A program made the position numbers and the translations under genes. The notes under the pieces were generated by a model. It saw only the letters and a program-made list of their open reading frames with translations. It searched no databases and was not told the DNA's origin. Positions 12,801 to 49,673 of a stretch of DNA of 64,000 nucleotides are shown piece by piece. Origin of the DNA: a bacterium (GTDB lineage: Bacteria; Elusimicrobiota; Elusimicrobia; UBA1565; UBA9628); NCBI GenBank assembly GCA_021822495.1, contig JAKAQO010000005.1, positions 42,548 to 106,547 on the forward strand, read 5' to 3'. Position 1 is the stretch's first letter, and each line of letters opens with the position of its first letter.

Positions 12801-12813
12801 ATAGTCATTTATT

Positions 12814-32233: not shown

Positions 32234-32260
32234 AAAAGGGGACTGTCCCCTTTTTTAGTT
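32233..32260. terminator. REP (core 32238-32250) between convergent genes
   Basis: taAAAAAGGGGACTGTCCCCTTTTTT directly follows the TAA. Confidence 0.55.
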
Positions 32261-33214: not shown

Positions 33215-33273
33215 GACTTTTTCTTTTTGATTTCCTCTCTGAACGCCTTATTCTATGCAAAACCCCGCGAAAG

Positions 33274-33651
33274 TCAAGCGTTCAAACGGCGTTCCAGCGC
33301 CTTGACCCGCGCCAGAAGAACTTCTCGTTCAAAGGGCTTGGTCACGTATTCATCCGCGCCCCGGTTGTATCCGCGAATTTGCTCGACAAGCAAAGCCCGG
33401 ACGGTCAGCATGAGAATCGGCAATTGGGCAAAACGAGGATCTGTGCGAATGCGCTCGGTGAGTTGAAGTCCGTCAAGCCTCGGCATATTAAGGTCAAATA
33501 TTCCCATGTCAATTTTATTTTTTTCCAGCTTTTCCCAGCCTTCCTGGCCGTCCACGGCCTCGACCACCTCATAGCCGTCTTCTTCAAGCATCATGCGAAG
33601 GATGTCCCGCACGCTCGCATCGTCATCCGCGATTAGAATTTTTTTAGCCAT
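33274..33651 (-). CDS. Single-domain receiver (CheY-like) response regulator
   Basis: ILIADDD, GIFDLNMPRLDG and VTKPF. Confidence 0.75.
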   Translation of the reverse strand: MAKKILIADDDASVRDILRMMLEEDGYEVVEAVDGQEGWEKLEKNKIDMGIFDLNMPRLDGLQLTERIRTDPRFAQLPILMLTVRALLVEQIRGYNRGADEYVTKPFEREVLLARVKALERRLNA

Positions 33652-33653
33652 CG

Positions 33654-34346
33654 CTATTTTTTCCTCCGCTGGATGACATTGGCGCTGTCCAACTCCCAGA
33701 CATAACCAATGCCGTGAACGGTCTTGATATAGAAGCCTGATTCCCCCAGCTTTTTACGCAGGGCCTCGATATGTTTGTCAACGGTCGAGGCTTGAACGCT
33801 ATCGGAGTCAGAACGAATCATCTGAAGGAGAGTTCTTCTTTCCAAGGCAACCCCGGGGCGTTCCAGGATAAACGCGAGGAGATCAAACTCCGTTTTCGTC
33901 AAATCGAGGGGTTTTTGATTTAAAACCGCAATTCGCCCCAGGCGGTCGATTTCGATTTTTCCGTCTTGAGATTTCAGCGTTCCAACAGCTTCCGGTTTAA
34001 CGAAGCGTCGAAACACCGCCTCAAGCTTAGCCGACAAAAGCTCTCCCGGCATATCCGGAGAAACCACGTCATCGGCCCCGGCGTTTAAAAGTTCGATGAG
34101 GCGCGCCGCATTTTGAAGACGGGAAGAAACTAAAAGAGAAAGCCGTGTTTCTTTCTCCCGAATAAGGTTTAAGCTTTGGGCATCGGGCAAAATTGATTCG
34201 AAGATAATGACGGTTCCCGGGGGCTTCGGCAAAAGGGCCAAAGCGCTTTTAAAATCCGTGCTTCTTAAAACTTTCCAGCCCCGGAGTAAAAATGCCTCCT
34301 CCCAGTTTTTTCCCAGCAATTCCGGCCCCGCGATTAGGATTTCCAT
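33654..34346 (-). CDS. OmpR-family winged-helix regulator with a degenerate (pseudo-)receiver domain
   Basis: The C-terminal trans_reg_C domain is intact (LTKTEFDLLAFILERPG...HGIGYVWE). In the N-terminal receiver, the acidic pocket is replaced (ILIAGPE instead of DD), the phospho-acceptor position is Glu (IIFESILPD), and the conserved Lys is absent. Confidence 0.55.
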   Translation of the reverse strand: MEILIAGPELLGKNWEEAFLLRGWKVLRSTDFKSALALLPKPPGTVIIFESILPDAQSLNLIREKETRLSLLVSSRLQNAARLIELLNAGADDVVSPDMPGELLSAKLEAVFRRFVKPEAVGTLKSQDGKIEIDRLGRIAVLNQKPLDLTKTEFDLLAFILERPGVALERRTLLQMIRSDSDSVQASTVDKHIEALRKKLGESGFYIKTVHGIGYVWELDSANVIQRRKK

Positions 34347-40500: not shown

Positions 40501-42159
40501 TCATACCCCTTTATCTCGGGAACCGGCATCATTCCCTTTTCGCCGGGAATCACCATCAGCACTATTCCCATCCGGCTTCTGGTCGCGGTAGACGTTTCAA
40601 CCGGAGCCAATTATCTCAACAATGATTTTGGAATCGGAATTTCAACTCCCGCCAATATCTCAATCAACGCGCCCAATTTTGTCGTTCCCTCAACCACCAC
40701 ATTCCCGGCCGATTCAAGTATTATTCCCATTACGAAAGCCCCGGATGTCATGAGCGTTTTCCCGACTTCCTTGATGGATGTCAACGGCGTCGTTCAAGGC
40801 CAAAACGCGCCGGCGGCGAAACTGAGTTTAGTCACCCAGCACAGTTCCGTGACCTGGACGACGATTTCCGTTCAAAGAAGCGGCACCCTGCCGGATTCGG
40901 GAGTTGATTCCGTCAATATTTATGACGACGTAGATCAAAATGGTGTTCTTGACTCTTCGGATGTCCTAGTGGGAAGCGCGCCCTTTGTTTCCGGAACAGC
41001 CAATATTTCTTTCTCCACCGCGCAACTGGTCAGCCCCGCAGGAGCGGATTATCTCATTACGCTTCAAATTGACCCTAACGCTACTCCGGGAGACACCATT
41101 GGAATTTCCTTGTCCGGCGTGTCCAACTTTACCGTGTTGCCCCCGGACACCGTCTCGGGTTCAAGCCTTCCGTTTAACTCGGCCTTAGGGCCGGTTCTCA
41201 ATATTAAAACTCCCACTCAACCCATCGTCACTTTCCCGAACGGAGATTATTCCAGCTCCTTTGATTCGGTCGGCTTTATCTGGTATTCAACGGTCGCCGT
41301 CGGTTCCATTTCCAGCGCGGCCTATGCCGTGGGAACGACTCCCGGGGGAACCGATATCGCGCCGTATACCGCCATTCCTTTTGCGGCGTCTAGTTTCACC
41401 GCGACCAATCTTCTCCTCTCTAACGGGGCCACTTATTATGTCTCGGTGGAAGCCACCTCTAACTACGGCTTTACCAGCCCGCCGGGAATCAGCCCCGGGT
41501 TTTTGGTTGATTTAATCACCCCAGGGTCGCCGACCAATCTCAGCGCCAATGTCGGCGTAAGCTCGATTTATCTGACCTGGGATCCGGGAACAGTCGGGCC
41601 CTCAGGCGCTTCGGGATATCTTCTCGAATATTCAGACGTCGAACATCCGACCTGGTATAACGCCAAGACCGGAGCGGTCACCGCCCTGGCCGCCGGCCCC
41701 CATGGAACTCTTTCGGCCAATTTCATTCCCTCTTCGCCGTTTTTGTTCAACAATCCGCCGCAAGGAACCCTTCTTTTCCGCGTTAGTTTAGTCAACGGCG
41801 CGGGGGTTCAAAGCGCCCCGTCCAATTCGATCAGGGTTCTCTTTGGAACGCAGTCAAACGCTGGAATATCGAACGTCTCATCCTATCCCAATCCCTTTAA
41901 CTCAAATTCCGGAGTCGCGACTATCGTCTACACCTTGGATACTCCGGGGAATGTCTCCATTCAAATCTACAGCGTCTTTGGGAGTCTCGTCAAAAGCCTC
42001 TCTTATTCTGGTGGAAGCGTGGGGGGGCAAGCCGGCGTCAATACCGTGACCTGGGACGGAACCGACTCAGGCGGACGCAAAGTCTCCAAGGGCATCTACA
42101 TCGCCGTCCTCAAAGCCAATGGTATGAGCGTCCAATACAAAATCGGGGTCAATCACTGA
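34525..42159 (+). CDS. Giant (2544 aa) secreted repeat-rich surface protein with Asp-box/BNR-like beta-propeller repeats, FN3/Ig-like modules and a T9SS-type C-terminal sorting domain
   Basis: A signal peptide is present. There are three super-repeats of about 560 aa, each with TTYYWR(V/I), S-x-(D/N)-G-x-(S/T)-W propeller repeats and the Cys motif CGG.SPC.AT.Q..FT.SD. Five repeats of about 125 aa follow (..IYRD.NGTG..). An FN3 domain is next (IYLTWDPG), and the protein ends in a C-terminal domain of type PNPFN..ATI.Y.L....V.I.IY...G.LV..L..G..WDG.D..G..V..GIY. Confidence 0.75.
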   Translation: MRKKNICELVSEGAQQKRSQKLGRWGLSLTLLIFLAAQAKAQVQNIISTPTYPANGSYFNLQNQTPNFNWFGPSTTTIQLATSPVYNLQVGTDPTFAAGLVINVQIAAVIPSTGLPNAYGSYLSGTSLTNNTTYYWRVYATDSSGGESMSWSTFSFVTDFAPDSNLSASYSGTLNSLGQTTPENQFVSLSNGATSQLSVSASFSGIAVSSSAVPLTGDSASFTQGTSGYGVLYSTNSGTTWEDYSSLGINVPAAGGGATIWNLAVFNGFLYAGLSNGSIIHTNNGTSWNTDYTGSNYGIGGFTIYKNTLYASNHDGSNAYMVSITNAGTVNRATVFNSGAGVSKPVVLNNTLFVEASYTGIPAGDPGAGNAGGGIFASQDGIHWVQTSGVGVCSDNFDQLFTFNGELYANVQSGGFGCSGLFVSPDGVNWTTIDNQSVPGTVNTATVFNGKLYIGVNNGGSNPLLYSSTNGQSWSADNGTLTQPSLGGSVNDLNVVNGKLYAGISTTTARIYVTEDGNNWFPSISGGTGQTGAGAPVYFNGNFYAAAGPDIITISPFSASLPGSNGEPSGTLSAVSPQLAASTTTTTCGGVSPCNATNQVIFTASDMAGNTLMSGPYAILVDTEVGVAISTPSYPGTPTVGQSPPGTVPYVNVQPNFDWIGPSTGVASALQQPANFFLEVSSNDPTFSPSNIVISTSTPVVVYSTNVPTANGAYLSPYVLGNNTTYYWRIYIKDNLGGTSPTSPTYKFITDFAQPAVSTSSFQSINAQSSLLPENQFNDLASGVTAQITVQDTNSGLAVSTSALSFAGDGHDDPPITSGFGIIYSTNAGFSWIVQSTSAEANNGSAVGTGIRSLAVFNGDIYAGDYSGHVYYSADGNTWSAGTPGTNPIQSLSVFNGILYAGDGGGYIYSSSNGSTWSTTNGGSAVGAGILAMTVFNGQLYAGDNFARVFVMDASGNWHNVDGGTVGTSSIESLAAFNGQLYAGDYYGNIYASTNGSSWNSLGTIGNSGSLIETMAVFNGKLYAGDSNGFIHFSANGASWTTSNNGSAVGSGITALTVFNGQLYAVDALGYVHISADGVHWNSIKVATQGTGLAGFNGNLYVGDYYGAVYRAIPLAATLSGSDGTTASQTLSANNLNLVQSTTTATCGGTSPCSATDQIIFTASDLAGNVVESGPYAILVDTTVAPAISTPSYPLNGAYLNFNPNFNWTGPSTSIVSGLLAPSYYQLEVSSNDPTFATVFVNISTPIPPVNTGLSTDNGAYISTYTFANLTTYYWRVRTIDGFGGTSPWSTTFSFTTDFSSPTAVGGSFATLNSLGGLVPENQVTVLQSGVTAQINITDIGSGFSAFNSSNYSVRYSTNAGLSWISEPFSALAFTGSIGQTSTQTFTAYGLNLAASTNSYVCGGISPCGATNQVEFTFSDQALNFSTAGPFAVIVDTHSTDVLVSTANVAPLGIPQNTSVAFIRLTLNSLTGTAPWTGLTVQRLGSGTDADVQNVAIYRDNAGTGIFSPSDTQITQNAVFSGGIVNLTMTNPESITTSTKTYFLVYTAAPGALVGDGLAAEITSTASFTFSNGYQMSSAQTTIYPLISSTATVVDGPNYLYITPASQAPNDAPPGTANIEMLSLKAYTNTGTSTLSKIVFHLLGTGASNDISSISIYRDSNGTGVYAPNDSLVTSGSDSFFNGVSTVAFTTTIASETVTTSPIYYFVLISLSPNAPLGDTLGISISTTSDVELIDVLDTTTFTTSPAASSLLTIEYINTLNVQGVNQIPSSLLQGQQYAILKASFTVSTGETSFNGITITRIGLGHDSDVSAVRVWQDPAPPETFNPATFLQLSSGTFVNGNAQLNFPLQTLSAGTTYVYYVTYNISPTALQGDTLGGRITSNLDISDTNPGTTIVGNFSINSATSPVVPTTAGLFVSAQNVAPSDLLQGATNQQMLNLTMDTTQYSVLLGALTFNSLGTASSSDISRVEVYQDLVGNGILNTSTDPLLSAVSYPFISGTGIIPFSPGITISTIPIRLLVAVDVSTGANYLNNDFGIGISTPANISINAPNFVVPSTTTFPADSSIIPITKAPDVMSVFPTSLMDVNGVVQGQNAPAAKLSLVTQHSSVTWTTISVQRSGTLPDSGVDSVNIYDDVDQNGVLDSSDVLVGSAPFVSGTANISFSTAQLVSPAGADYLITLQIDPNATPGDTIGISLSGVSNFTVLPPDTVSGSSLPFNSALGPVLNIKTPTQPIVTFPNGDYSSSFDSVGFIWYSTVAVGSISSAAYAVGTTPGGTDIAPYTAIPFAASSFTATNLLLSNGATYYVSVEATSNYGFTSPPGISPGFLVDLITPGSPTNLSANVGVSSIYLTWDPGTVGPSGASGYLLEYSDVEHPTWYNAKTGAVTALAAGPHGTLSANFIPSSPFLFNNPPQGTLLFRVSLVNGAGVQSAPSNSIRVLFGTQSNAGISNVSSYPNPFNSNSGVATIVYTLDTPGNVSIQIYSVFGSLVKSLSYSGGSVGGQAGVNTVTWDGTDSGGRKVSKGIYIAVLKANGMSVQYKIGVNH

Positions 42160-42827
42160 TATGAAAAAAAGGGGACAGTCCCCTTTTTGGGGGAAATCTC
42201 GAAAAAGGGGACTGTCCCCTTTTTTGGCCGCCCGATGCGGCGCTCAAGCCCCATTTCCTCTCTTATCTCTTGCTCACGCTCACCACCATACACTATTTCT
42301 TTATAAAAATAAGCCCTCTCCTGGGCAGAATTTCCAAGAGATAAATAACCTGGGCTTTCCTCCAGAAAAGGGGACTGTCCCCTTTTTCCTGTATAGAATC
42401 CATAGCTGGACCAAGAGTAATCTTCCGGTTTTTTCACGATGGCTGCGCGAACGGGGTTTAACTCAATATAACGGCCACAGAAAAGCAGGCTTCTCTCCGT
42501 TGGCAACAAGACGCTTTTATAACGCCCCTGCCAGAGATGACCCACCAGAGAATTTTTTCCTCGGAAATAATCGGAATATCCCTGCAAAAGTCTTTGCATC
42601 GCCTTACCCAGGTCTTCCGCTTTTTGAACTTGAGCTAAGAAATGAACATGATTTGGCATTAGGACATAATGATACAGGTGAAAAGGATTTTTTTTCTTCG
42701 CCCATTTCAGAAGAGCTAAGAATTTTTCATAATCTAAATCTTCCTGAAATATCTTCTGTCGGTTATTCCCACGAGCCATCAGATGATAAAACATTCCCTC
42801 AAGCACATTTCTCCTCTGTCTTGGCAT
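42153..42827 (-). CDS. IS200/IS605-family Y1 tyrosine transposase of the REP-associated type (RAYT)
   Basis: The HuH motif is MPNHVHFL and the catalytic Tyr context is GHLWQGRYKS. One REP (42370-42382) is inserted in frame, giving GKRGQSPF. The ORF has no stop until it has read through the downstream REP doublet (..KKGTVPFFEISPKKGTVPFF). Confidence 0.7.
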   Translation of the reverse strand: MPRQRRNVLEGMFYHLMARGNNRQKIFQEDLDYEKFLALLKWAKKKNPFHLYHYVLMPNHVHFLAQVQKAEDLGKAMQRLLQGYSDYFRGKNSLVGHLWQGRYKSVLLPTERSLLFCGRYIELNPVRAAIVKKPEDYSWSSYGFYTGKRGQSPFLEESPGYLSLGNSAQERAYFYKEIVYGGEREQEIREEMGLERRIGRPKKGTVPFFEISPKKGTVPFFSYQ

Positions 42828-42960
42828 ATCACCCCTCCTTTCCGCCTAGATTCTCTGCTATATTTCATACGGCAGAAACACAAAAAAAGTTCCCTCAAAA
42901 AAAGGGACAGTCCCTTTCTCGGTTAAAATTCCTAAAAAAAGGGACTGTCCCTTTTTTCTT
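42161..42960. mobile_element. RAYT-REPIN unit: RAYT gene flanked by inverted REP doublets (42165-42235 and 42897-42960)
   Basis: Downstream doublet cores are at 42171-42183 and 42207-42219. Upstream doublet cores are at 42904-42914 and 42941-42951. This is the classical genomic context of REP-associated tyrosine transposases. Confidence 0.6.
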
Positions 42961-44485
42961 ATTTCTACTTCTCTCTTCCATATCGGCTTCCGCAGCCAGC
43001 AGCTTCTATGCCGGTTCTCCTAACGAAATTTTCCAGTTCGGAGCTGACGCCAGGGCCATGGGAATGGGAAACGCTTATACCGCAATCGCTGGCGGCGCGT
43101 CTTCTCTTTACTACAACCCCGCAGGACTCGGCCTTCTCAATGGTCCCGATATCAGCGCCATGCAGGCCAGTCTCATTGGCGGCGCGGCTTATGAAAATTT
43201 ATCCTATGCCCAGAATTTTTCAAAGATGCCTGGAGCTTGGGGAGTTGAAGCCCTCAACATGGGCGTTGGAGGGGCCGAGCAAAGGGACTCTCAAAATAAT
43301 TTGACCGGAAGTTTTGGCTTTCAAGAAACCGGATATGGAGCGGGATTTGGATTGCGAAATGTCGTCATTCCAGGTTTATCATTGGGAGGATCTTTCCAAG
43401 GGCTCAGCCGAAGCTTAGGTGGAAGTTCTTCCGACATGCTCTATGGAGCCAATCTCGGCGCCCAATACGGCCCTTTTTTTGATAATATGGTGACCGCCGG
43501 ACTCGTTCTCCAAAACGGCTTTAACGGAGCGCAAAACACCTTTGACCGGTTGCCTACGGTTCTACGCGCGGGCCTGGCCGTCACTCCCATCGACAATCTT
43601 CTTATCTCCGCGGACTATGGAAACGACGGAGATTATGGAATAGGCGCGGAATATAGAATATGGATGTTCGCCCTGCGAGCCGGATATATGCCGGAAGGCC
43701 TCACCTTTGGCGCTGGAATCTATTATAAATCAATGGAAGCCGATGTCGCGATGGTCAATGATCCGATTTTTGGAATGGGGGAGCGGTTTTCGATCAACTA
43801 CCGATTCGCGGGGAAGAAAAAAGAAAAGCCTCTCCAGACTTATACCAACAGTTATCTTGACGCCGCGAAAAAAGAACTTAATATTCGCAATTACCTCAGC
43901 GCGCAACTGGCTCTTGAAGAAGCGATGGGGATTGATCCAACCCAGATTCCCCAAATATGGAAGGAAAAACTCAAACTTCTTCAAGCGTTCAATCAATATT
44001 TAGATCTCAAGAATCGACCGGATGAGGTTAAGACTCTTCTCGCTAATGATCCGGCGGCGATACTCGCCCAAAAATCGATTTTTTCTTATTTAGAGGGGCG
44101 TGACGGCGATGCGATGATTTGGGCCTCCGTGGCCGCTGGAACGGCTCATAAATCCATGCCCTATATTGACTTTATCAAGACAATGGCTTATCTTACGAGT
44201 ATGAAGGTTTCGGAAGGAGATTTGTTGCCGCCGGCCGAATATGTTTCCAAAAAAATGGAGACTGCTCTTCAGGACATTTATCAAAAACGCTTCGCGAATT
44301 CAGTCAGAGATTGCCAACAGGCCATTGTGGTCAACCCGAAAGAATCTTCCGCCTGGACTCGTCTTGGCAGCGCTTATTTTGCCTGGGGACACAAACAAGA
44401 AGCCAAAAAGGCTTATCAAAAAGCCCTGGAGCTCGATCCCAAGGATGAAAATCTTAAGAAATTCATGGAGATCTATATCAAATGA
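42956..44485 (+). CDS. Outer-membrane beta-barrel protein with a PorV/PorQ-like N-terminal motif and C-terminal TPR; 5' start unresolved
   Basis: The signal-peptide-like segment KKGTVPFFLFLLLSSISASAASS is partly encoded by a REP. It is followed by FGADARAMGMGNAYTAIAGGASSLYYNPAGLG and Gly-rich beta-strands, with TPR at the C-terminus. No ATG/GTG/TTG start exists between the REP doublet and this segment. The frame is open back to 42161, antisense to the RAYT gene. Confidence 0.45.
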   Translation, partial: FLFLLLSSISASAASSFYAGSPNEIFQFGADARAMGMGNAYTAIAGGASSLYYNPAGLGLLNGPDISAMQASLIGGAAYENLSYAQNFSKMPGAWGVEALNMGVGGAEQRDSQNNLTGSFGFQETGYGAGFGLRNVVIPGLSLGGSFQGLSRSLGGSSSDMLYGANLGAQYGPFFDNMVTAGLVLQNGFNGAQNTFDRLPTVLRAGLAVTPIDNLLISADYGNDGDYGIGAEYRIWMFALRAGYMPEGLTFGAGIYYKSMEADVAMVNDPIFGMGERFSINYRFAGKKKEKPLQTYTNSYLDAAKKELNIRNYLSAQLALEEAMGIDPTQIPQIWKEKLKLLQAFNQYLDLKNRPDEVKTLLANDPAAILAQKSIFSYLEGRDGDAMIWASVAAGTAHKSMPYIDFIKTMAYLTSMKVSEGDLLPPAEYVSKKMETALQDIYQKRFANSVRDCQQAIVVNPKESSAWTRLGSAYFAWGHKQEAKKAYQKALELDPKDENLKKFMEIYIK

Positions 44486-44561: not shown

Positions 44562-47075
44562 ATGGACATATTAATGATTATTTTTATCCCAAGTCTTTTT
44601 CTTGTGTTGGGAGCCCTGATGTTTATCGTCAGCCGGGTCATGGAGTTTTCACAATCCAACCGTTATTTCGCAAAACAACGAGGAAACAGTCTTATGTTTA
44701 CACGTTTCATGACTCAAATCGCCATAGCGAAAAGCCAACTGGGAAAAAGGGCCCAGGAACTGGAAGCCCTCTCCATGCGTCTTCAAATGAACAATGAAGA
44801 GCTCGCGAGGCTCAACAATCTCAAGATGAAATTTCTTTCCATGGCGGTTCATGATATTCGAAACCCCTTGACCGCCATTACCGGCTATAGCGATATCCTG
44901 TCTCGCAACAAAAATATTGGTCCGAAAGAACAAGTCCTCTCGAAAATGATCTTGACCGCGACGCGGCAAATCAACCACCTCATGGGCGACTTGACCGATC
45001 TGGCCGTCATCGAAGCGGGAAAATTCAAGATGGAAATGGCGCCCTTTGATCTGGCCGGACTCATCCAAGAAGTCGGCGCGACGCTGGCTCCTGGAGCCTC
45101 TAACAAAGGCGTCATTCTTTCTGTTCTGGAACCTCCGTCGGGAATCATCATCACCGCCGACCGCTACCGCATTTGGCGCGTTTTGACGAATCTTTTAGGC
45201 AACGCCGTCAAATTTACTCCCTCGGGCGGCCGCGTTGAACTGAGAGCCGAAGTCGCGGCGGGAATGGCCATGATTTCCGTTCAAGATAATGGTCCCGGAA
45301 TTCATCCCACCGAACGCCGAAAAATTTTTGAAAAATTCTACCAGTCAAAGCACATCAAGGATGAAAAGGCCCGCAAGGGCGGCTGGGGGCTGGGACTCGC
45401 CATCGCCCAAGAAATTGTTCAAGCTCACGGAGGGGAAATTGGGGTTGACAGCCGCGGTCTCGGGCATGGATCCACTTTTTGGGTTCGCATTCCTCTTAAA
45501 GCTCGGCGCCCCATTCGCTCTAGCCCCATGCGCCTTTCTCTTGCTTTAATCGGGTTTTTAGCTCTTTCTTTTATTCCGAAAAAAACTGGGGCTCAAACTG
45601 TTCCCTTTCTTGAAAAATCCAAGTTCGAGAAATCCCTAGAAACCAAGGTGGACGGGGTTCTCCTCAATATCCTGGGGCCCAATCGGGCCAAGGTCATCAT
45701 CAACGCGACCTTAAACTTTACCAAGACGGAAAGTTTTCAAACCGAAGGCGCAAGCGTCACAACCACAAAAACCTCGGGGCTACCTTATCTCTGGCAAGAG
45801 CCCAGCAAAACGGCGCAGCCCGAAGAACTTCTTCCTGGAGTGCCGCTTGATTCCGGAGGCCCTGCTCTTCCCATGCCACCGCCGTCAATTAAGGGATATA
45901 AAAAAGAAGATTCCTTTCCCGCCGAATTTATCAAGAGGTTGGATGTCACTCTCATTTTGGACAATTCCGTTAAGGGAAATCGCAGCGCCGAAATCGGCAA
46001 AATTACATCCGACCTTCTCAATCTCAATCCCAAACGGGGGGATTCTTTAACCGTGGTCCACACCGAGTTTTCTCCTATTTGGAAAACCGTCTGGTATTCT
46101 CCGGCCACTGCGGGCATGCTTCTTAAATATATTTTGACCGGGTTTCTCTTTTTCATGGCCTTGATCGTCATCGCTATCGGATTCATAAAAATCGCCAACG
46201 CCATGCGCATGATGGCTAACGCCCAAGCTCAGCAAATTTCCATGGAAATGAAGGGACTCGATGGCGAGGGGGGAAGCGGACCAGGAGGGCTTTTAGGACA
46301 CAATACGCTCATGATTGGGGATCAAAAATCAGGAGAAAACGTCCCTGAGAATAAAAATGAACCCGTCATGTTCGACGTAGGGATGGATCAGGTAGAAACC
46401 CTGGCTCAAATGCTTCTCCCCGAACCGGCCAATAACATTGCCATTGTCGCGTCCCGCCTAACCCCGGATGTTTCGAAAAGACTCATTGAGGCCCTTCCCC
46501 CGGAACTGGCGACGCAAGTCATCAGCCAACTCGCTCGTCCGCGCTTTATCGATCCGGAAATTATCGTCAACTTAAAGGAAGAGCTGGAACGGCGTCTTTC
46601 CGGCGCGGTGGGAGGCGTTCATTATCTCTCGGAACTCATGTCGGCCGCCAGCCAAAAGAGGCGCCATGAGATGCTCGAAGCCGTTCGCGCGCAAAACCCG
46701 AACCTCGCGGAAGAACTTAGAAAAAGAGTCTTTTTCATCGAGGATCTTTCAAAGCTGAGCCAACAGGAATGGTCATACCTCTTATCCTTGGTCACCTATC
46801 AAGAATGGAGTGCGGCCCTTCATGAGGGACCCCAAGTGGTCGTCGAAGCCATTAAGCAAAATCTATCGGAAAAAGCCTGGGGGGTTCTTAGCGAAATGAT
46901 TGAAACGGCTTCTCCCAGCATAGAACAAGCGGAAATAGCGCAAGACAAAATCGGTCAAAGCGTCTCGGAACTCATCAAGGAACAGAGAATCAAGACCATC
47001 GCACCACAATTGGGACTTCAGGTTCATGAATCTCCAATTGAGGAAGAAAAAGGCGCAGAAAGCAACAAAAAGTAA
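44562..47075 (+). CDS. Multidomain fusion of a membrane histidine kinase (HisKA + HATPase_c), a FliF/SctJ-like periplasmic ring-building segment with a TM anchor, and a FliG (rotor/switch protein) middle + C-terminal domain
   Basis: GGAGG lies 6 nt upstream of the ATG at 44562. The kinase motifs are the H-box AVHDIRNPLTAITGYSDIL, the N-box LLGNAVKFT, and the G-boxes DNGPGI and GWGLGLAIA. There is no stop after the kinase. A signal/TM-like segment MRLSLALIGFLALSF (ATG 45528) is followed by about 200 periplasmic residues, then the TM segment LLKYILTGFLFFMALIVIAIGF. The FliG-like region is LPPELATQVISQLA...EELERRLSG.VGG...NPNLAEELRKRVFFIEDLSKLS..E..YLLS.V....AL......V.EAIKQNLSEKAW.VL.E.....SIEQAEIAQ. 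Alternatively these are two genes, with the second starting at 45528. Confidence 0.6.
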   Translation: MDILMIIFIPSLFLVLGALMFIVSRVMEFSQSNRYFAKQRGNSLMFTRFMTQIAIAKSQLGKRAQELEALSMRLQMNNEELARLNNLKMKFLSMAVHDIRNPLTAITGYSDILSRNKNIGPKEQVLSKMILTATRQINHLMGDLTDLAVIEAGKFKMEMAPFDLAGLIQEVGATLAPGASNKGVILSVLEPPSGIIITADRYRIWRVLTNLLGNAVKFTPSGGRVELRAEVAAGMAMISVQDNGPGIHPTERRKIFEKFYQSKHIKDEKARKGGWGLGLAIAQEIVQAHGGEIGVDSRGLGHGSTFWVRIPLKARRPIRSSPMRLSLALIGFLALSFIPKKTGAQTVPFLEKSKFEKSLETKVDGVLLNILGPNRAKVIINATLNFTKTESFQTEGASVTTTKTSGLPYLWQEPSKTAQPEELLPGVPLDSGGPALPMPPPSIKGYKKEDSFPAEFIKRLDVTLILDNSVKGNRSAEIGKITSDLLNLNPKRGDSLTVVHTEFSPIWKTVWYSPATAGMLLKYILTGFLFFMALIVIAIGFIKIANAMRMMANAQAQQISMEMKGLDGEGGSGPGGLLGHNTLMIGDQKSGENVPENKNEPVMFDVGMDQVETLAQMLLPEPANNIAIVASRLTPDVSKRLIEALPPELATQVISQLARPRFIDPEIIVNLKEELERRLSGAVGGVHYLSELMSAASQKRRHEMLEAVRAQNPNLAEELRKRVFFIEDLSKLSQQEWSYLLSLVTYQEWSAALHEGPQVVVEAIKQNLSEKAWGVLSEMIETASPSIEQAEIAQDKIGQSVSELIKEQRIKTIAPQLGLQVHESPIEEEKGAESNKK

Positions 47076-47085: not shown

Positions 47086-47210
47086 AAAAGGGGACAGTCC
47101 CCTTTTCCTCATAAACTTAAGGTCGGGGACAGTGCCGTCCCTAAGAATTATGAAGAAGAGGCACAGTCCCCTTTTTTTCTTCGTCATTTCTTCATGATTA
47201 AATGCCGCTT
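47086..47210. repeat. Composite 120-bp REP-containing leader element (copy 2), near-identical to 34373-34497
   Basis: About 115 bp are near-identical to copy 1, including the variant core GGGGACAGTGCCGTCCC (47125-47141). Confidence 0.6.
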
Positions 47211-47228
47211 TTGTTCTACCCTATAACT

Positions 47229-48173
47229 ATGAGTGAAAGTCCAAAAGGTTCTATCTTTTCCTCATTAAGGGCATTAGAGGAAGTTCTGGAAGAAACTCCC
47301 ACTGCAATACCTACTCCGCAAAACGTTTCTCCCGCTCCTGTTCAAGCCGCACCACCGCCACCCACTCCCACGCCCATGAGTTCAACGCCGCCCGTTGATT
47401 CTTCAAGCGAAGCTCTCAAATCCGTGGAAGCAAAGATTGAAAAAATCGATCAAAAAATTCAGGAATTAGGAAATCTCCCAATCTCGCCAAATCTTGATCG
47501 CATTGAAGCTCTTGAGAAAAACCTACAACAGATGCAGGAGCGGGCCATCCAGGCAGAAGTTGCGCTCAGAGAACGAGAAAAATCCCAAGAAGCCGCAAGA
47601 CGTGAGACAGAATCTCTTCTTCAAAATCTAGCATCCCAAAGACGACTCGAAGAATCCGACAGGCAAATGAAGGAGAACCTGTCCTACTGCCGGCACCGCA
47701 TCGAGGAATTAGAAGAGCGGCAAGCCTCTCTCAAAATTTCAGATACGCAACAGTCGGAGCATGAGTTTAAATCGCTCTTAAAAAATTTTATGGAACAAAT
47801 CGACCTTAAAACAGCCCCGATTTTAACGTCTCTCCTTGAACTCAAGAAAGAGAATCAAAACCGCGAAAAAGAGAGTCTCAATATGGAAAAAAGGATAGGC
47901 CATCTTGAAACCAAAACCGCTAATAAAAGCCAAGTTGACGCTCTGCGCGAAGACTTCCTCCATTTAAAACAGTCCGTGGAAAAAATTAATTTGGAAACAT
48001 CGGAAAAGCTCGATAAAATAACCGCGGCATTAAGCCTATTGTCGCTTAAACTCCACAAAGATAAGGCAACAGAAGAATTAATCATTCTCGATAAAGAGTT
48101 TCAAAAAATACACTCTATTCTCAACGCCAATATTTCCAACTCTCCCAAACAAACAGGAATAGCCCCTGATTGA
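47229..48173 (+). CDS. Pro-rich N-terminus plus long coiled-coil protein (function unknown; placed in the motor-like cluster)
   Basis: A PAPVQAAPPPPTPTP segment is followed by heptad-rich sequence with abundant E/K/L/Q. The start at 47229 is the second in-frame Met; the ORF tracker starts at 47202. Confidence 0.4.
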   Translation: MSESPKGSIFSSLRALEEVLEETPTAIPTPQNVSPAPVQAAPPPPTPTPMSSTPPVDSSSEALKSVEAKIEKIDQKIQELGNLPISPNLDRIEALEKNLQQMQERAIQAEVALREREKSQEAARRETESLLQNLASQRRLEESDRQMKENLSYCRHRIEELEERQASLKISDTQQSEHEFKSLLKNFMEQIDLKTAPILTSLLELKKENQNREKESLNMEKRIGHLETKTANKSQVDALREDFLHLKQSVEKINLETSEKLDKITAALSLLSLKLHKDKATEELIILDKEFQKIHSILNANISNSPKQTGIAPD

Positions 48174-48211: not shown

Positions 48212-48949
48212 ATGGAACTGACATCGATTATCGGCCTTGGAGCAATTTTAACTCTAACCGCAATTGGGCTCGCCACGGGAGGGCTCCCGGCGGTTTTCAT
48301 CAACTGGCACGGAATCGGCATCGTCCTGGGCGGCACTTTTTGCGCCTTGATGATTAACACTCCCCTGGATATCTTGCTCAGAACTGGAGCGGCTATAACA
48401 GATTTAGTTTCAGCCGATCCTTACGTCGATCGCATCGCCCTTGTGGACGCGATCATGGCCTTGGCTCAAGAGGTTCAATCCCGAGGAATCAGCGCCTTTA
48501 ACAACGTCAACAAAACGGTTGCCGCTGGGTATCTCGCTTATGCCGCTCAAATTGCCGTCGAATACAATAATCCTGAAACCCTCCGGCAGGTCCTGGAAAA
48601 TGAGATTATTCAAAACTCCGATTTACAAAATGAAGCGGTCAACGTTTTTAGAACCGCAGGAATTTTGGCGCCGATGTTTGGGCTTTTAGGGACCTTGATC
48701 GGAATTGTCGAAGTTCTGCGCCAAATCGCCAACCCCGCTCAAGTAGGCTCCGCCATGGCAGTCGCCATTACTACCGCTTTTTATGGTATTGCGACGGCTA
48801 ACGTTTTTTGCGTGCCAATAGCTGGGAAATTGAGAATCAGGTATTGGAGAGAAACGCAGGCTAAAACCATGGTTTTAGAAGGCGTCTATGAAATTCTTCA
48901 ACGAACGCCCACCGTCATCATCTCCAGGAAACTAAAATCTTATTTATGA
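48212..48949 (+). CDS. motA: MotA/PomA-type proton-channel stator subunit
   Basis: Four TM helices with a large cytoplasmic loop. The TM3-TM4 core is APMFGLLGTLIGIVEVL...AMAVAITTAFYGIATAN. I chose the ATG at 48212; the ORF tracker's TTG is at 48170. Confidence 0.65.
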   Translation: MELTSIIGLGAILTLTAIGLATGGLPAVFINWHGIGIVLGGTFCALMINTPLDILLRTGAAITDLVSADPYVDRIALVDAIMALAQEVQSRGISAFNNVNKTVAAGYLAYAAQIAVEYNNPETLRQVLENEIIQNSDLQNEAVNVFRTAGILAPMFGLLGTLIGIVEVLRQIANPAQVGSAMAVAITTAFYGIATANVFCVPIAGKLRIRYWRETQAKTMVLEGVYEILQRTPTVIISRKLKSYL

Positions 48950-48975
48950 TAAAAAAGGGACAGTCCCCTTTTTCT
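48950..48975. repeat. REP (core GGGACAGTCCCC, 48957-48968) between motA and motB
   Basis: An intra-operon copy, so perhaps an attenuator rather than a full terminator. Confidence 0.5.
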
Positions 48976-48980
48976 TGATT

Positions 48981-49673
48981 ATGAGACGATCACGGCACGA
49001 AGACCTCGAAAATCAACTCGCGAAATCCGCCCAATGGGCTATTACCTACGGCGATTTCATGAGCTATCTCATGATTTTCTTTCTCATCATGTTCTCTTTT
49101 ACGCTCTCCAAATCCGGAGGGAAAACCACGGAAAACGTTAAATATCAGGAATCCTTGATTAAAATCCAGAAAGTCTTTGGGGGAAAAGGAAGCTCCCTGG
49201 ATTACGATCGCCTCATTAAGCGCGAAAAAGAAGAGTCCATGGTGACCCAACTCAAACAGGCTCTGGACAAGAAAGACTTGTCCAAATACGCGAAAATAGA
49301 AACCTGGGATAAAAAAATTCGATTAATTCTCGCTAGCGCGGTTCTTTTCGATTCAGGGCGAGCGACCTTGGCCCCGCGCTCGGAAAAAATTCTGGCCGCC
49401 GTCGCCCAACAGCTTAAGACTTTGGACAACCCCATTCAAATTGAAGGCCATACCGACAACGTGCCAGTTCGCGGCGGACGTTATAAGTCCAACTGGGAAC
49501 TTTCGATGGCGCGGGCTTATTCCGTGCTGGTCTTTTTGGAAAAGCAGGGCATCGCGCCTCAGCGCTTATCCGCGATTGGCTACGGCAAGTATCATCCCAT
49601 TGCCGACAACAACACCGCGGAAGGACGCGCTAAAAATCGTAGAATCGAGATAGATTTATTACGGACAGAATGA
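48981..49673 (+). CDS. motB: MotB-type stator subunit (single TM with a conserved Asp plus an OmpA-like peptidoglycan-binding domain)
   Basis: AITYGDFMSYLMIFFLIMF carries the channel Asp. The C-terminal OmpA-like region is ILASAVLFDSGRATL...IQIEGHTDN...NWELSMARA...NRRIEI. Confidence 0.7.
   Translation: MRRSRHEDLENQLAKSAQWAITYGDFMSYLMIFFLIMFSFTLSKSGGKTTENVKYQESLIKIQKVFGGKGSSLDYDRLIKREKEESMVTQLKQALDKKDLSKYAKIETWDKKIRLILASAVLFDSGRATLAPRSEKILAAVAQQLKTLDNPIQIEGHTDNVPVRGGRYKSNWELSMARAYSVLVFLEKQGIAPQRLSAIGYGKYHPIADNNTAEGRAKNRRIEIDLLRTE

What the first reader, a model, noticed from the sequence alone, without database searches (positions are those of the whole stretch)
44562..47075. Single reading frame fusing a sensor histidine kinase to a FliF-like periplasmic ring segment and a FliG rotor domain
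A complete HisKA/HATPase kinase (residues 1-312) runs without a stop into a second hydrophobic segment (MRLSLALIGFLALSF). Next comes a periplasmic stretch of about 200 aa with two small RBM-like modules (KVDGVLLNILGPNRAKVIINATLNF and RLDVTLILDNSVKGNRSAEIGKITSDLLNL), then a third TM segment. The cytoplasmic C-terminus, about 290 aa, aligns motif by motif with the FliG middle and C-terminal domains, including LPPE..A..V...L, EELE..LSG..GG, the (N/D)P.LAEE(L/I)R.R(M/V)F.FEDL torque-helix region, and NLSEKAW...SIEQAE.AQ. The membrane topology (in, TM, out, TM, in) fits a genuine fusion. FliF-FliG fusions occur naturally, but I know of no described kinase-FliF-FliG protein. Such a fusion would put the rotor under direct control of a phosphorelay, or make the kinase sense rotor state.
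Basis: partly seen in the sequence, partly recalled or inferred. Interest (0 to 1): 0.9.

Follow-up and report, generated by a model that had tools for sequence, protein, structure and literature searches.

The report
Kinase fused to flagellum-less rotor protein
A bacterium from a phylum without flagella encodes one protein that joins an active sensor kinase to the ring-forming and torque-receiving parts of the flagellar rotor, inside a conserved gene cluster with stator proteins and an outer-membrane anchor, which offers a concrete case for asking what "half a flagellar motor" is used for.

Summary
ORF 44562-47075 (+) is one uninterrupted 837-aa frame. It holds a catalytically intact HisKA/HATPase_c kinase, a short signal-peptide-like hydrophobic segment, one FliF RBM3/collar module, a true transmembrane helix, and FliG middle and C-terminal domains. 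It is not an artefact: about 68 sequence clusters at 37-100% identity share the architecture, nearly all from Elusimicrobiota. That phylum is reported to lack structural flagellar genes. The gene belongs to a conserved cluster: PorV/PorQ-like barrel-TPR protein, kinase, FliF-FliG, a coiled-coil protein "X", flagellar-type MotA and MotB, plus receiver proteins. In most lineages the kinase is a separate 313-aa gene beside FliF-FliG, so the two parts are linked whether fused or not. Kinase-less variants exist, and one Margulisiibacteriota relative sits in a real flagellar operon. My best reading is a flagellum-independent, MotAB-energised FliF/FliG ring whose assembly or load state is read by the attached kinase. 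This is inferred, not shown. The presence of fliG and motAB in this phylum had been noted as "enigmatic", but I found no description of the architecture or the cluster.

The parts
44562..47075 (+). Fusion gene, 837 aa: sensor histidine kinase, FliF RBM3/collar, FliG_M and FliG_C
   Evidence: Continuous ORF with a Shine-Dalgarno GGAGG upstream; Pfam and NCBIfam domains; 68 homologous clusters with the same architecture
44568..44639 (+). TM1 (residues 3-26). It continues as one helix (residues 3-115) into the DHp H-box.
   Evidence: Kyte-Doolittle 19-residue window at or above 1.6 for residues 1-30; AF2 helix 3-115
44823..45020 (+). HisKA/DHp domain (residues 88-153) with the phospho-acceptor His97
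   Evidence: Pfam 4.4e-12; H97, D98, R100 and P102 invariant in all 65 fused members
45159..45500 (+). HATPase_c catalytic domain (residues 200-313) with N, G1, F and G2 boxes
   Evidence: Pfam 3.4e-27; N210, N214, D242xG244xG246, F256 and G274WGLGL invariant
45525..45596 (+). Short hydrophobic segment ('TM2', residues 322-339) followed by the conserved A342-x-A344|Q345 motif; signal-peptide-like
   Evidence: Run of 14 uncharged residues (family range 8-21) versus 20 residues for TM3 in 67 of 69 sequences (19 in the other two); small-x-A|Q in at least 60 of 69 sequences; below the hydropathy threshold; low pLDDT; the junction Met is present in only 4 sequences
45597..46097 (+). Periplasmic FliF RBM3 (residues 346-512) split by a collar-like insertion (about residues 397-443)
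   Evidence: AF2 core pLDDT 88-97 with alpha-beta-beta / insertion / beta-beta-alpha-beta topology; the top 18 Foldseek PDB matches are all FliF RBM3/collar S-ring structures, E 3e-8 to 5e-7; 14 invariant residues
46110..46184 (+). TM3 (residues 517-541). It continues as a cytoplasmic helix to residue 564, followed by a disordered linker to residue 607.
   Evidence: Hydropathy 2.81; a 20-residue uncharged run in 67 of 69 family members and 19 in the other two; AF2 helix 514-564 and low pLDDT for 560-598
46383..46616 (+). FliG middle domain (residues 608-682) and the invariant Gly684-Gly685 hinge; EHPQ motif replaced by EPAN
   Evidence: Pfam 2e-10; alignment to 1lkv; column counts
46617..46994 (+). 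FliG C-terminal domain (residues 686-811) with a remodelled torque helix (LSEKAWGVLSEMIE)
   Evidence: Pfam 5e-14; 1lkv 3.6e-21; charge pattern and co-variation with MotA
47202..48173 (+). Protein X: conserved N-terminal peptide (KGSIFSS), Pro-rich linker and coiled coil; always follows FliF-FliG; no TM segment; no Pfam family reaches its curated cut-off (one sub-threshold hit, NPV_P10, E 0.003)
   Evidence: Syntenic in every locus examined; no Pfam family above cut-off
48212..48949 (+). Flagellar-type MotA/PomA stator A subunit (245 aa from the ATG at 48212)
   Evidence: NCBIfam flagellar motor protein 2.8e-42, TolQ only 8e-6; full-length match to solved MotA 8ucs/6ysf at 1e-26; no ZorA hit
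48975..49673 (+). MotB stator B subunit: plug, channel Asp27, OmpA-like peptidoglycan-binding domain
   Evidence: Pfam MotB_plug and OmpA; MotD/MotB models 6.5e-52; D27 invariant in 35 of 35 orthologues
42821..44485 (+). Outer-membrane PorV/PorQ-family barrel with a C-terminal TPR domain (start codon uncertain)
   Evidence: NF033709 PorV_fam 2.8e-20 (73 bits, cut-off 90) plus TPR hits; first gene of the cluster in nearly all loci; start-codon problem
34525..42159 (+). Giant (2544 aa) beta-propeller/Ig/fn3 surface protein ending in a T9SS type A sorting (CTD) domain
   Evidence: TIGR04183 at 28 bits (cut-off 23) and PorU/PorZ CTD-like hits; Pfam DUF6242, Ig, fn3, FlgD_ig; upstream of all fused-type loci
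32852..34346 (-). Divergent regulatory genes: OmpR-like pseudo-receiver with wHTH (33654-34346), stand-alone receiver RR1 (33274-33651), CheY-like receiver RR2 (32852-33214)
   Evidence: Pfam and NCBIfam; signature residues; RR1 orthologues at 45-57% identity lie next to the cluster in L001, L002, L030, L031, L035 and L047
49687..50706 (+). Secreted HEAT-repeat protein directly after MotB (conserved only in the window's subclade)
   Evidence: Pfam HEAT_2 2e-75; syntenic in L007 and L008; a HEAT protein also lies beside MotAB in L055

Best explanation
The gene encodes the central subunit of a flagellum-independent rotor-stator machine that is widespread in free-living Elusimicrobiota. SHOWN: (a) the protein joins an intact sensor kinase to the FliF S-ring module (RBM3 plus collar) and to FliG_M and FliG_C; (b) it is always clustered with flagellar-type MotA and MotB that keep the channel Asp, the plug and the peptidoglycan anchor, with a PorV-like outer-membrane barrel-TPR protein, with coiled-coil protein X and with receiver proteins; (c) where kinase and FliF-FliG are not fused, they are neighbouring genes. 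INFERRED: RBM3 oligomerises the protein into an inner-membrane ring, as it does in FliF. Each subunit then presents one FliG_MC on the cytoplasmic face, with the covalent link replacing the FliG_N-FliF contact. Proton-driven MotA5B2 units act on the remodelled FliG_C helix. The kinase's TM1 runs as one unbroken helix into the phospho-accepting His, and the kinase is held in the ring. It therefore reports ring assembly and/or stator load, as FlgS does for FliF/FliG in Campylobacter. The signal would go to the stand-alone receivers: RR1, probably acting through the OmpR-like pseudo-receiver, and the CheY-like RR2. MORE SPECULATIVE: the mechanical output acts on the outer-membrane PorV-like/TPR protein and the giant CTD adhesin it would anchor, giving gliding-like movement, tensioning or handling of the adhesin.
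For: Architecture and catalytic integrity. RBM3/collar fold. Conservation of the fusion in about 68 clusters. Synteny at 39-43% identity. Unfused versions with an adjacent 313-aa kinase. Counts over 50 loci (about 33 ordered PorV-TPR, HK, MotA, FliF-FliG, X, MotB; 7 fused). True flagellar-type stator with invariant Asp. MotA loop and FliG helix both remodelled, and changed together in the window's subclade. Continuous TM1-to-H-box helix. Complete receivers next to the cluster. No flagellar genes in the window or in 0.96 Mb of related loci. Literature reporting no structural flagellar genes in the phylum but 'enigmatic' motAB and fliG. Precedent for a kinase that senses FliF/FliG assembly. PorV-family and T9SS-CTD assignments. 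A giant protein recurs in the distant variant L054.
Against: There is no experimental or imaging evidence, and every source is a metagenome-assembled genome. Ring formation is inferred from fold similarity alone (TM-score about 0.5, 15-19% identity). RBM1 and RBM2 are absent, and no rod-like or periplasm-spanning transmission element was identified. The classical charge pairs are not kept: the MotA E98 equivalent is Lys or Arg in 39 of 43 sequences, and the FliG D288/D289 equivalents are Gln and Ser/Thr/Met, so torque generation is not assured. Five or six paralogous clusters have no MotAB within 10 kb. The giant CTD protein accompanies only the fused type and L054. The PorV-family score is below its curated cut-off. 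'TM2' may be removed by signal peptidase, which would separate kinase and rotor in the mature state. Whole genomes could not be scanned for flagellar or T9SS genes.
Confidence: 0.5

Rival explanations
1. Processed polyprotein. The short hydrophobic segment after the kinase acts as an internal signal peptide, and signal peptidase I cuts after the conserved AxA. The mature cell then holds a two-span kinase and a separate single-span FliF-FliG, as in the unfused lineages. On this reading the fusion only guarantees 1:1 synthesis and co-insertion. It is compatible with the best explanation for the system as a whole.
For: The uncharged run is 14 residues (family range 8-21, mostly 13-18), whereas TM3 is 20 residues in 67 of 69 sequences. 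It is followed by AxA|Q in 37 of 69 sequences and by small-x-A|Q in at least 60 of 69, and it falls below the hydropathy threshold. The same segment is the N-terminal signal sequence of the unfused proteins. AF2 confidence is low for residues 318-346.
Against: Cleavage of an internal signal sequence behind a 320-residue cytoplasmic domain is unusual in bacteria. The conserved AQ could be structural, as the start of the RBM3 helix. The N-terminal TM of canonical FliF is not cleaved (my own knowledge, not tested here). No cleavage-prediction tool was available.
Confidence: 0.35
2. Static signalling platform. The FliF/FliG ring does not rotate and does no mechanical work. MotAB serves as a sensor of proton flux or of the cell wall, and its engagement with FliG_C gates the kinase. 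The system would then sense proton-motive force or envelope state, and the outer-membrane TPR protein would be an input rather than an output.
For: No transmission element (rod, RBM1/2, or a periplasm-spanning protein) was found. The canonical torque charge pairs are lost. Kinase and receivers are the most constant accessory genes. The TM1-to-H-box helix is typical of transmembrane signalling.
Against: Kinase-less variants keep FliF-FliG, MotAB and the TPR protein, so the motor module has a role independent of the kinase. MotB keeps the plug, Asp and peptidoglycan anchor of a working stator. The association with giant surface proteins recurs in distant variants.
Confidence: 0.2
3. An ordinary flagellar rotor protein. 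The organism is flagellated, and this is its MS-ring/C-ring protein with an added regulatory kinase.
For: A related short FliF-FliG protein (P0240) heads a genuine flagellar operon in a Margulisiibacteriota genome. The FliG and MotAB parts are clearly of flagellar descent.
Against: No FliM, FliN, FliP, FliQ, FliR, FlhA, FlhB, FliK or FlgE homologue lies in the 64-kb window or in 0.96 Mb of Elusimicrobial loci, while the clostridial control locus is hit. Two papers report that structural flagellar genes are absent from Elusimicrobiota. RBM1 and RBM2, which in FliF house the export gate, are absent.
Confidence: 0.03
4. An artefact or a misassignment: a frameshift or chimeric assembly joining two genes; or a C-terminal domain that is MgtE-like; or a Zorya-type anti-phage system.
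For: None beyond the a priori possibility. MotB also matches ZorB models (1.5e-23), and MgtE_N gives a faint hit (E = 0.16).
Against: The same frame is continuous in about 68 independent clusters from many samples and in 7 fetched loci. FliG_C and FliG_M score 5e-14 and 2e-10, against 0.16 for MgtE_N. MotA has no ZorA hit, and the MotB match to flagellar models is far stronger at 6.5e-52.
Confidence: 0.01

Closest known systems
Flagellar rotor and stator: FliF MS-ring, FliG and MotA5B2
   Same: The RBM3/collar fold of FliF. The FliG_M - Gly-Gly - FliG_C arrangement. Flagellar-type MotA. MotB with plug, channel Asp and OmpA-like anchor. A 1:1 FliF:FliG ratio.
   Different: FliF RBM1 and RBM2 are absent, as is FliG_N. 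The EHPQ motif is absent. The torque-helix and MotA-loop charges are remodelled. No FliM/N, export gate, rod, hook or filament genes are nearby. A histidine kinase is fused on.
Single-chain FliF-FliG proteins: the Vibrio FliF-FliG chain solved as PDB 8z4d/8z4g, and the short natural FliF-FliG of Ca. Margulisiibacteriota (P0240, locus L052)
   Same: FliF and FliG joined in one polypeptide. P0240 has the same reduced layout (signal/TM segment, RBM3, TM, FliG_MC) and is followed by MotA and MotB.
   Different: These lack a kinase. P0240 lies in a true flagellar operon (FliK, FlgE-like, FliM, FliN, FliPQR, FlhBA), whereas the Elusimicrobial genes do not.
The Campylobacter jejuni FlgS/FlgR checkpoint (Boll and Hendrixson 2013, PMC3760246)
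   Same: A histidine kinase that physically associates with FliF and FliG and signals once they have multimerised into the ring. This is the same logic proposed here.
   Different: FlgS is a soluble, separately encoded kinase. It needs the flagellar type III export apparatus and controls sigma-54 flagellar genes. Here the kinase is membrane-anchored, adjacent or covalently fused, and there is no flagellum.
Bacteroidota type IX secretion and gliding machinery: GldLM motor, PorV/PorQ/PorP barrels, giant SprB adhesin, PorXY two-component system
   Same: A proton-driven 5:2-type motor in the inner membrane. A PorV-family outer-membrane barrel. A giant surface protein with a T9SS-type C-terminal domain. 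A dedicated two-component system tied to the motor (the PorXY link is from my own knowledge).
   Different: The motor here is MotAB acting on a FliF/FliG ring, not GldLM. No GldK/N, SprA or PorU was seen in the window. The PorV-like protein carries a TPR domain and scores below the family cut-off.
Zorya anti-phage system (ZorAB)
   Same: A MotAB-like ion-driven pair used outside the flagellum.
   Different: MotA here is a short flagellar-type protein with no ZorA match. No ZorC/D-type genes are present. Zorya was considered and excluded.

Membership tests
HisKA-type two-component sensor histidine kinase | DHp domain with the phospho-acceptor His in an H-box | tested here: met
   Pfam HisKA 4.4e-12; H97-D-x-R-x-P invariant in 65 of 65 fused members
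HisKA-type two-component sensor histidine kinase | Catalytic ATP-binding domain with N, G1, F and G2 boxes | tested here: met
   HATPase_c 3.4e-27; N210, N214, DxGxG, F256 and GWGLGL invariant
HisKA-type two-component sensor histidine kinase | A cognate response regulator with a phosphorylatable Asp | tested here: inconclusive
   RR1 and RR2 have full receiver signatures and lie in or next to the cluster in many loci. Phosphotransfer itself cannot be tested computationally.
FliG (flagellar rotor / switch protein) | FliG_M and FliG_C armadillo-like domains joined by a Gly-Gly hinge | tested here: met
   FliG_M 2e-10 and FliG_C 5e-14; 1lkv 3.6e-21; G684-G685 invariant
FliG (flagellar rotor / switch protein) | An N-terminal domain (FliG_N) that binds the FliF C-terminus | tested here: not met
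   Only about 65 residues, mostly disordered, separate TM3 from FliG_M. The only FliG_N hit overlaps FliG_M. TIGR00207 reaches 66.6 bits against a cut-off of 226.7.
FliG (flagellar rotor / switch protein) | The EHPQR motif that binds FliM | tested here: not met
   EPAN in the window and E/Q-D-P/A-E-N across the family. It is also absent from the Margulisiibacteriota relative.
FliG (flagellar rotor / switch protein) | Conserved torque-helix charges (E. coli R281, D288, D289) that pair with MotA E98 and R90 | tested here: inconclusive
   K or R at the R281 equivalent in 42 of 46 sequences. One Glu is retained but shifted by one position. The D288/D289 equivalents are Gln and Ser/Thr/Met. The MotA R90 equivalent is Arg in 35 of 43, and the E98 equivalent is Lys or Arg in 39 of 43. 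Residue pairs are as given in PMC12505986.
FliF (MS-ring protein) | RBM3 with beta-collar, forming the S-ring | tested here: met
   The AF2 model matches 18 FliF RBM3/collar structures at E 3e-8 to 5e-7, probability 1.00. Pfam YscJ_FliF_C 4e-7.
FliF (MS-ring protein) | RBM1 and RBM2 domains, which in FliF house the export gate | tested here: not met
   The whole periplasmic segment is about 170 residues and is filled by RBM3 plus its insertion. TIGR00206 reaches 29.5 bits against a cut-off of 129.75.
FliF (MS-ring protein) | Assembly into a ring of about 33-35 subunits | not testable with these tools
   Only single-chain prediction was available. This needs multimer modelling or electron microscopy.
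Bacterial flagellum (as a system) | Type III export apparatus, rod, hook, filament and FliM/FliN encoded in the genome | tested here: not met
   None is present in the 64-kb window or in 0.96 Mb of related loci, with a positive control hit. The literature reports their absence in the phylum. Whole genomes were not scanned.
MotAB flagellar stator | MotA of the flagellar (not TolQ/ExbB) clade; MotB with plug, channel Asp and peptidoglycan-binding domain | tested here: met
Type IX secretion / gliding system | Cargo carrying a T9SS C-terminal sorting domain | tested here: met
   TIGR04183 at 28 bits against a cut-off of 23, at the C-terminus of the 2544-aa protein; FlgD_ig
Type IX secretion / gliding system | A PorV/PorQ/PorP-family outer-membrane barrel | tested here: inconclusive
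   NF033709 2.8e-20 but 73 bits against a cut-off of 90; faint PorV or UPF0164 Pfam hits in orthologues
Type IX secretion / gliding system | GldL/GldM (PorL/PorM) motor, GldK/N ring, SprA translocon, PorU sortase | not tested
   None was seen among the annotated ORFs of the window.

The most novel reading that the evidence does not exclude
Elusimicrobiota, and a few relatives, possess a previously unrecognised class of envelope machine. It would be a flagellar rotor-stator core (FliF S-ring, FliG, MotAB) stripped of export apparatus, rod and filament, and re-used to move, tension or deliver giant outer-membrane-anchored adhesins through a PorV-like/TPR protein. That would amount to a third, independently evolved gliding or surface-motor system. 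It would carry a built-in two-component kinase acting as a load or assembly sensor, and a FliM-like docking peptide on protein X for a CheY-like regulator.
Probability: 0.3. Interest if true: 0.95.

Novelty: new variant of a known kind. Interest (0 to 1): 0.78.

Why it matters
[quoted passage not shown] A study of magnetotactic Elusimicrobiota called their motAB and fliG genes enigmatic. This finding turns that puzzle into a defined system that can be tested. It gives a conserved six-gene module with an exact domain map, a candidate ring-forming subunit, a stator with intact channel residues, a dedicated kinase with candidate receivers, and a plausible outer-membrane partner. If the ring rotates, it would be the first flagellar rotor known to work outside a flagellum. 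It would also be a natural example of a kinase wired covalently to a rotary motor, which bears on how bacteria sense mechanical load and surfaces. It bears on flagellar evolution too, because a minimal FliF(RBM3)-FliG protein plus MotAB may resemble either an ancestral or a residual motor core.

Tried and rejected
1. EHPQ loss as proof that FliM binding was lost in the non-flagellar forms. Rejected: the Margulisiibacteriota protein in a flagellar operon lacks the motif too.

2. 'The fusion is a derived state.' Not sustained. In the NJ tree the fused proteins form two pure clades (41 and 29 tips) and the unfused kinase-adjacent ones form a single clade of 18. One fusion plus one fission, or two fusions, both fit.

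3. The word-indexed search with the FliF-FliG half returned only 21 hits. The exhaustive profile search was needed to see the wider family.

4. My first MotA alignment kept only 11 sequences because the upstream extension introduced stop codons. It was redone with 43.

5. Zorya and MgtE readings: excluded.

6. Internal translation start at Met323. There is no Shine-Dalgarno sequence before 45528, and the Met is present in only 4 sequences.

7. Literature searches for a described kinase-FliG or FliF-FliG-kinase architecture, for T9SS in Elusimicrobia, and for non-flagellar FliG/MotAB/PorV systems found nothing specific. The library covers open-access papers only.

8. Naming the source organism through the 100%-identical entry P0001: no names were attached.

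9. Looking for a cultured carrier such as Elusimicrobium minutum: all 164 clusters came from MAGs.

10. Pfam for protein X found nothing meaningful.

11. The CheC-like protein is supported only by a motif I recall from memory and a hit at E = 0.11.

Full report
1. OBSERVATION

ORF 44562-47075 on the + strand is one uninterrupted 837-codon frame, with no stop codon in or near 45500-45540. The ATG at 44562 has GGAGG six bases upstream, and Met1 is nearly invariant across homologues. That start is therefore preferred over the upstream ATG at 44241, which runs through the preceding gene's end and two hairpin repeats.

Pfam assigns five domains:
- HisKA, residues 88-153, E = 4e-12
- HATPase_c, residues 200-313, E = 3e-27
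- YscJ_FliF_C, residues 457-503, E = 1.8e-5 (4e-7 when the periplasmic segment is scanned alone)
- FliG_M, residues 612-682, E = 2e-10
- FliG_C, residues 707-811, E = 5e-14

T. maritima FliG (PDB 1lkv, 4fhr, 3ajc) aligns over about 200 residues at 4e-21.

2. THE FUSION IS REAL

The same full-length architecture appears in about 68 clusters (at 90% identity), 808-963 aa long and 37-100% identical to the window protein. They come from NCBI, JGI, ENA and Logan assemblies, and nearly all named ones are Elusimicrobiota. Sources call them only 'ATP-binding protein', 'hypothetical protein' or, at JGI, 'signal transduction histidine kinase/flagellar motor switch protein FliG'.

In an alignment of 65 fused and 4 unfused members, all kinase catalytic motifs are invariant: H97-D-x-R-x-P, N210, N214, K217-F-T-P, D242-x-G-x-G, F256, and G274-W-G-L-G-L. 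The kinase is therefore under selection as an enzyme.

The Met that could start a separate FliF-FliG product is present in only 4 sequences, and no Shine-Dalgarno sequence precedes it in the window.

3. ANATOMY OF THE RING AND ROTOR HALF

I modelled the periplasmic segment (175 aa) with a 68-sequence alignment. The core is confident (pLDDT 88-97). Its topology is helix-strand-strand, then a 47-residue low-confidence insertion, then strand-strand-helix-strand.

The 18 best Foldseek matches in the PDB are all the RBM3/beta-collar (S-ring) region of Salmonella or Vibrio FliF, at E = 3e-8 to 5e-7 and probability 1.00. SpoIIIAG follows, and PrgK and EscJ match weakly. RBM1 and RBM2 are absent. Fourteen periplasmic residues are invariant.

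After TM3 the helix continues to residue 564 in the AF2 model, and residues 560-598 have low pLDDT. A poorly conserved stretch of about 40 residues follows, then FliG_M, the invariant Gly684-Gly685 hinge and FliG_C. There is no FliG_N. The covalent link replaces the FliG_N-FliF contact.

The FliM-binding EHPQ motif reads EPAN here and E/Q-D-P/A-E-N across the family.

Hydropathy gives only two strong membrane segments, TM1 (residues 1-30) and TM3 (residues 516-552). The middle segment is a run of 14 uncharged residues (family range 8-21), whereas TM3 is 20 residues in 67 of 69 sequences and 19 in the other two. The middle segment is followed by AxA|Q in 37 of 69 sequences, and by small-x-A|Q in at least 60 of 69. 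In the unfused proteins the same segment is the N-terminal signal sequence. It therefore looks like a cleavable Sec signal peptide. Whether it is cut is unknown.

In the full-length model, residues 3-115 form one unbroken helix from TM1 to the H-box.

4. SURROUNDINGS

Downstream lie:
- Protein X (47202-48173): no Pfam family above cut-off and no TM segment.
- MotA (48212-48949): a flagellar-type stator. The NCBIfam flagellar motor model scores 2.8e-42 and TolQ only 8e-6. It matches solved MotA 8ucs/6ysf end to end at 1e-26.
- MotB (48975-49673): plug plus OmpA domain, MotD/MotB models at 6.5e-52.
- A secreted HEAT-repeat protein and a CHASE2 cyclase.

MotB's channel Asp, in the motif Y-G-D-x-M-S-Y-L-M-I-F-F, is invariant in 35 of 35 orthologues.

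Upstream lie:
- A PorV/PorQ-family barrel with a C-terminal TPR domain (NF033709 2.8e-20; 73 bits against a cut-off of 90).
- A 2544-aa beta-propeller/Ig/fn3 protein ending in a T9SS type A sorting domain (TIGR04183 at 28 bits against a cut-off of 23).

Transcribed divergently from the giant gene are an OmpR-like protein, two complete receivers and an unannotated protein:
- The OmpR-like protein's receiver is degenerate, with G, P, E, S, P at the five signature positions.
- RR1 is of OmpR-family type.
- RR2 is CheY-like.
- A 196-aa protein carries a CheC/CheX-type motif, supported only weakly.

No other flagellar gene is present in the 64 kb.

5. THE CLUSTER IS CONSERVED AND THE FUSION IS ONE OF SEVERAL STATES

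Around homologues at 39-43% identity on contigs of 373-454 kb, the gene order is giant CTD protein, UPF0164/TPR protein, fusion gene, a Pfam-less protein, MotA, MotB, and then usually receiver genes.

Searching with the FliF-FliG half alone found 502-534-aa proteins that lack the kinase. In their loci a separate 313-aa HisKA+HATPase_c gene lies next to them, with or without MotA in between.

A scan of GTDB species representatives gave 44 loci, all from Elusimicrobiota MAGs. I ran tblastn with the window's proteins over all 50 Elusimicrobial loci then held, L001-L050. The result:
- About 33 loci are ordered PorV-TPR, HK, MotA, FliF-FliG, X, MotB, as separate genes.
- 5-6 loci have PorV-TPR, HK and FliF-FliG with no MotAB within 10 kb. 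At least one of these is a second copy in a genome whose other copy has MotAB.
- 7 loci are of the fused type, and only these are preceded by the giant CTD protein.

An exhaustive profile search found 156 representatives at E of 1e-30 or below. Named distant members are Elusimicrobiota, plus one Ca. Margulisiibacteriota. Kinase-less variants also exist:
- A minimal form: TPR, FliF-FliG, MotA, MotB.
- A TPR-tailed FliF-FliG with FlbD, MotA and MotB, once preceded by a 14,454-aa protein.

The universal core is therefore a TPR protein, FliF-FliG and MotAB. The kinase is an addition shared by a clade of 88 of 164 tips. In an NJ tree the fused forms make two pure clades (41 and 29 tips) and the unfused kinase-adjacent forms make one clade of 18. 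The order of fusion and fission is unresolved.

6. RELATION TO REAL FLAGELLA

In a Margulisiibacteriota genome the related short FliF-FliG (P0240) is followed by MotA, MotB (with a LysM domain), FliK, an FlgE-like protein, FliM, FliN, FliP, FliQ, FliR, FlhB and FlhA. The module is thus of flagellar descent and is still linked to a flagellum in that lineage.

Using those flagellar proteins as queries, nothing is hit in 0.96 Mb of Elusimicrobial loci plus the window, while a clostridial control locus is hit.

Doud et al. note a 'clear absence of ... flagellar genes' in Elusimicrobia (PMC7031533). Uzun et al. state that free-living Elusimicrobiota lack structural flagellar proteins yet carry motAB, flbD and fliG homologues whose role is 'unclear' and 'enigmatic' (bioRxiv 10.1101/2022.07.08.499144). 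Neither paper describes the architecture or the cluster.

7. STATOR-ROTOR INTERFACE

The canonical contacts are MotA R90 with FliG D288/D289, and MotA E98 with FliG R281 (PMC12505986). In this family:
- The MotA loop reads L-A-E-Q-x-R-x-R-G-L-S-A-L-K. The R90 equivalent is Arg in 35 of 43 sequences. The E98 equivalent is Lys or Arg in 39 of 43, a charge reversal.
- The FliG helix reads Q-M-A-E-K-T-W-Q-M-I-E-Q. The R281 equivalent is K or R in 42 of 46. One Glu lies one position before the D288 equivalent, which is itself Gln.
- In the window's own subclade both partners differ together. MotA has Q-S-R-G...F-N, and FliG has K...L-S-E-M.

This is what a direct but remodelled contact would give. 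It rests on one evolutionary event and is suggestive only.

8. PROTEIN X

Protein X is 295-800 aa or longer. It begins with a conserved peptide, K-(D/G)-S-(I/V)-F-(S/A)-(S/G), found in 33 of 44 loci. A Pro/Ala-rich linker and coiled coil follow. The peptide resembles my recollection of the FliM N-terminal CheY-docking peptide. This is a lead, not a test.

9. MECHANISM

Shown:
- The domain map.
- The catalytic integrity of the kinase.
- The RBM3 fold.
- The intact stator signatures.
- The gene linkage, with or without fusion.

Inferred:
- RBM3 drives ring assembly.
- One FliG_MC per subunit forms a rotor-like array.
- MotA5B2 acts on it using the proton-motive force.
- The kinase is held in the ring, with its TM1 helix running straight into the H-box. 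It responds to ring assembly and/or stator load and phosphorylates RR1 and RR2.

The kinase step has a precedent. C. jejuni FlgS co-immunoprecipitates with FliF and FliG and senses their multimerisation (PMC3760246).

More speculative: the output acts on the PorV-like/TPR protein and the giant CTD adhesin, by analogy with the GldLM, PorV and SprB logic of gliding Bacteroidota (PMC8986121, listed).

Weak points:
- No transmission element was found.
- The charge pairs are changed.
- Some clusters lack MotAB.
- The adhesin link holds only for the fused type and L054.
- No experimental data exist.

10. RIVALS

- Signal-peptidase processing, giving separate mature proteins (0.35). This is compatible with the main model.
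- A static proton-motive-force or envelope sensor that does no mechanical work (0.2).
- An ordinary flagellar rotor (0.03).
- An artefact, an MgtE-like domain or a Zorya system (0.01).

11. NOVELTY AND VERDICT

The components are known kinds. New here are:
- The architecture: kinase, FliF RBM3 and FliG_MC in one chain.
- The conserved non-flagellar cluster.
- The link between kinase and rotor.

I found none of these described in the searchable literature, which covers open-access papers only. The bare presence of fliG and motAB in this phylum was already noted.

I classify the finding as a new variant of a known kind. It has about a 0.3 chance of representing a new class of envelope machine. 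[quoted passage not shown]' (PMC12199754). No cultured carrier was found, which limits immediate experiments. Interest: 0.78.

Noticed in passing
window, about 22 sites, e.g. 1596, 10154, 23235, 26225/26262, 28510/28547, 42171/42207, 44492/44529, 47090, 48956, 59175/59203: The near-palindrome GGGGAC(A/T)GTCCCC, flanked by an A-run and a T-run, occurs about 22 times where 0.07 are expected by chance. Nearly all sites are intergenic, and many are in pairs 28-37 bp apart. It looks like a REP-like or bidirectional-terminator hairpin family. Copies bracket the fusion gene and sit between MotA and MotB. When read through, the repeat produces spurious 'KKGTVPFF' ORF translations.
   Followed up: partly
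window 42161-43000: The PorV-like/TPR gene has no ATG, GTG or TTG next to its signal peptide. The nearest in-frame TTG is at 42821, and the frame stays open back to the ATG at 42161 across a hairpin-rich spacer of about 750 bp. The true start is unclear. Close relatives (L007-L009) have a similar spacer.
   Followed up: partly
window 32255-32848 (-): An unannotated 196-aa protein beside the CheY-like receiver contains D-x3-E-x2-N-x22-P, which I recall as the CheC/CheX/FliY phosphatase motif. The only Pfam hit is CheC at E = 0.11, lying exactly on that stretch. It may be a phosphatase for the cluster's receivers.
   Followed up: partly
window 33274-34346 (-): An OmpR-like DNA-binding protein with a degenerate receiver (G, P, E, S, P at the positions of CheY D12, D13, D57, T87, K109) lies next to a complete stand-alone OmpR-family receiver (RR1). 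This looks like a split response regulator. The same pair accompanies the cluster in L001-L003.
   Followed up: partly
window 47229-47260 and the protein X genes of L004-L049: Protein X starts with the conserved peptide K-(D/G)-S-(I/V)-F-(S/A)-(S/G), followed by a Pro/Ala-rich linker. The peptide resembles my recollection of the FliM N-terminal CheY-binding peptide and could be a docking site for RR1 or RR2.
   Followed up: partly
L052 (Ca. Margulisiibacteriota, GCA_041650635.1) 3096-14538: A 480-aa short FliF(RBM3)-FliG protein heads a genuine flagellar operon. Its MotB carries a LysM domain instead of an OmpA domain. Whether this reduced protein is that organism's only MS-ring/rotor protein is unknown.
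   Followed up: no
L054 1-7823 (GCA_002412545.1): A 14,454-aa protein lies directly upstream of a TPR protein and a TPR-tailed FliF-FliG, followed by FlbD, MotA, an OmpA protein and MotB. The association of a giant protein with this module therefore recurs in a distant, kinase-less variant.
   Followed up: no
L018/L026 (Elusimicrobia GWA2_61_42) and L031/L044 (RIFOXYA12_FULL_57_11): Some genomes carry two paralogous clusters. In one pair, the second copy (L044) has the kinase and FliF-FliG but no MotAB within 10 kb.
   Followed up: no
window 49687-52718: A secreted HEAT-repeat protein and a CHASE2-adenylate/guanylate cyclase follow MotB with overlapping or near-adjacent reading frames. The HEAT gene is syntenic in L007 and L008, and a HEAT protein also lies beside MotAB in L055. 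This may be a second-messenger branch of the system.
   Followed up: no
L004 15621-19695: In one unfused-type locus the cluster is followed by type IV pilus genes: a PilB-like MshEN+T2SSE protein, a PilT-like T2SSE protein and a PilC-like T2SSF protein. This may be coincidental.
   Followed up: no
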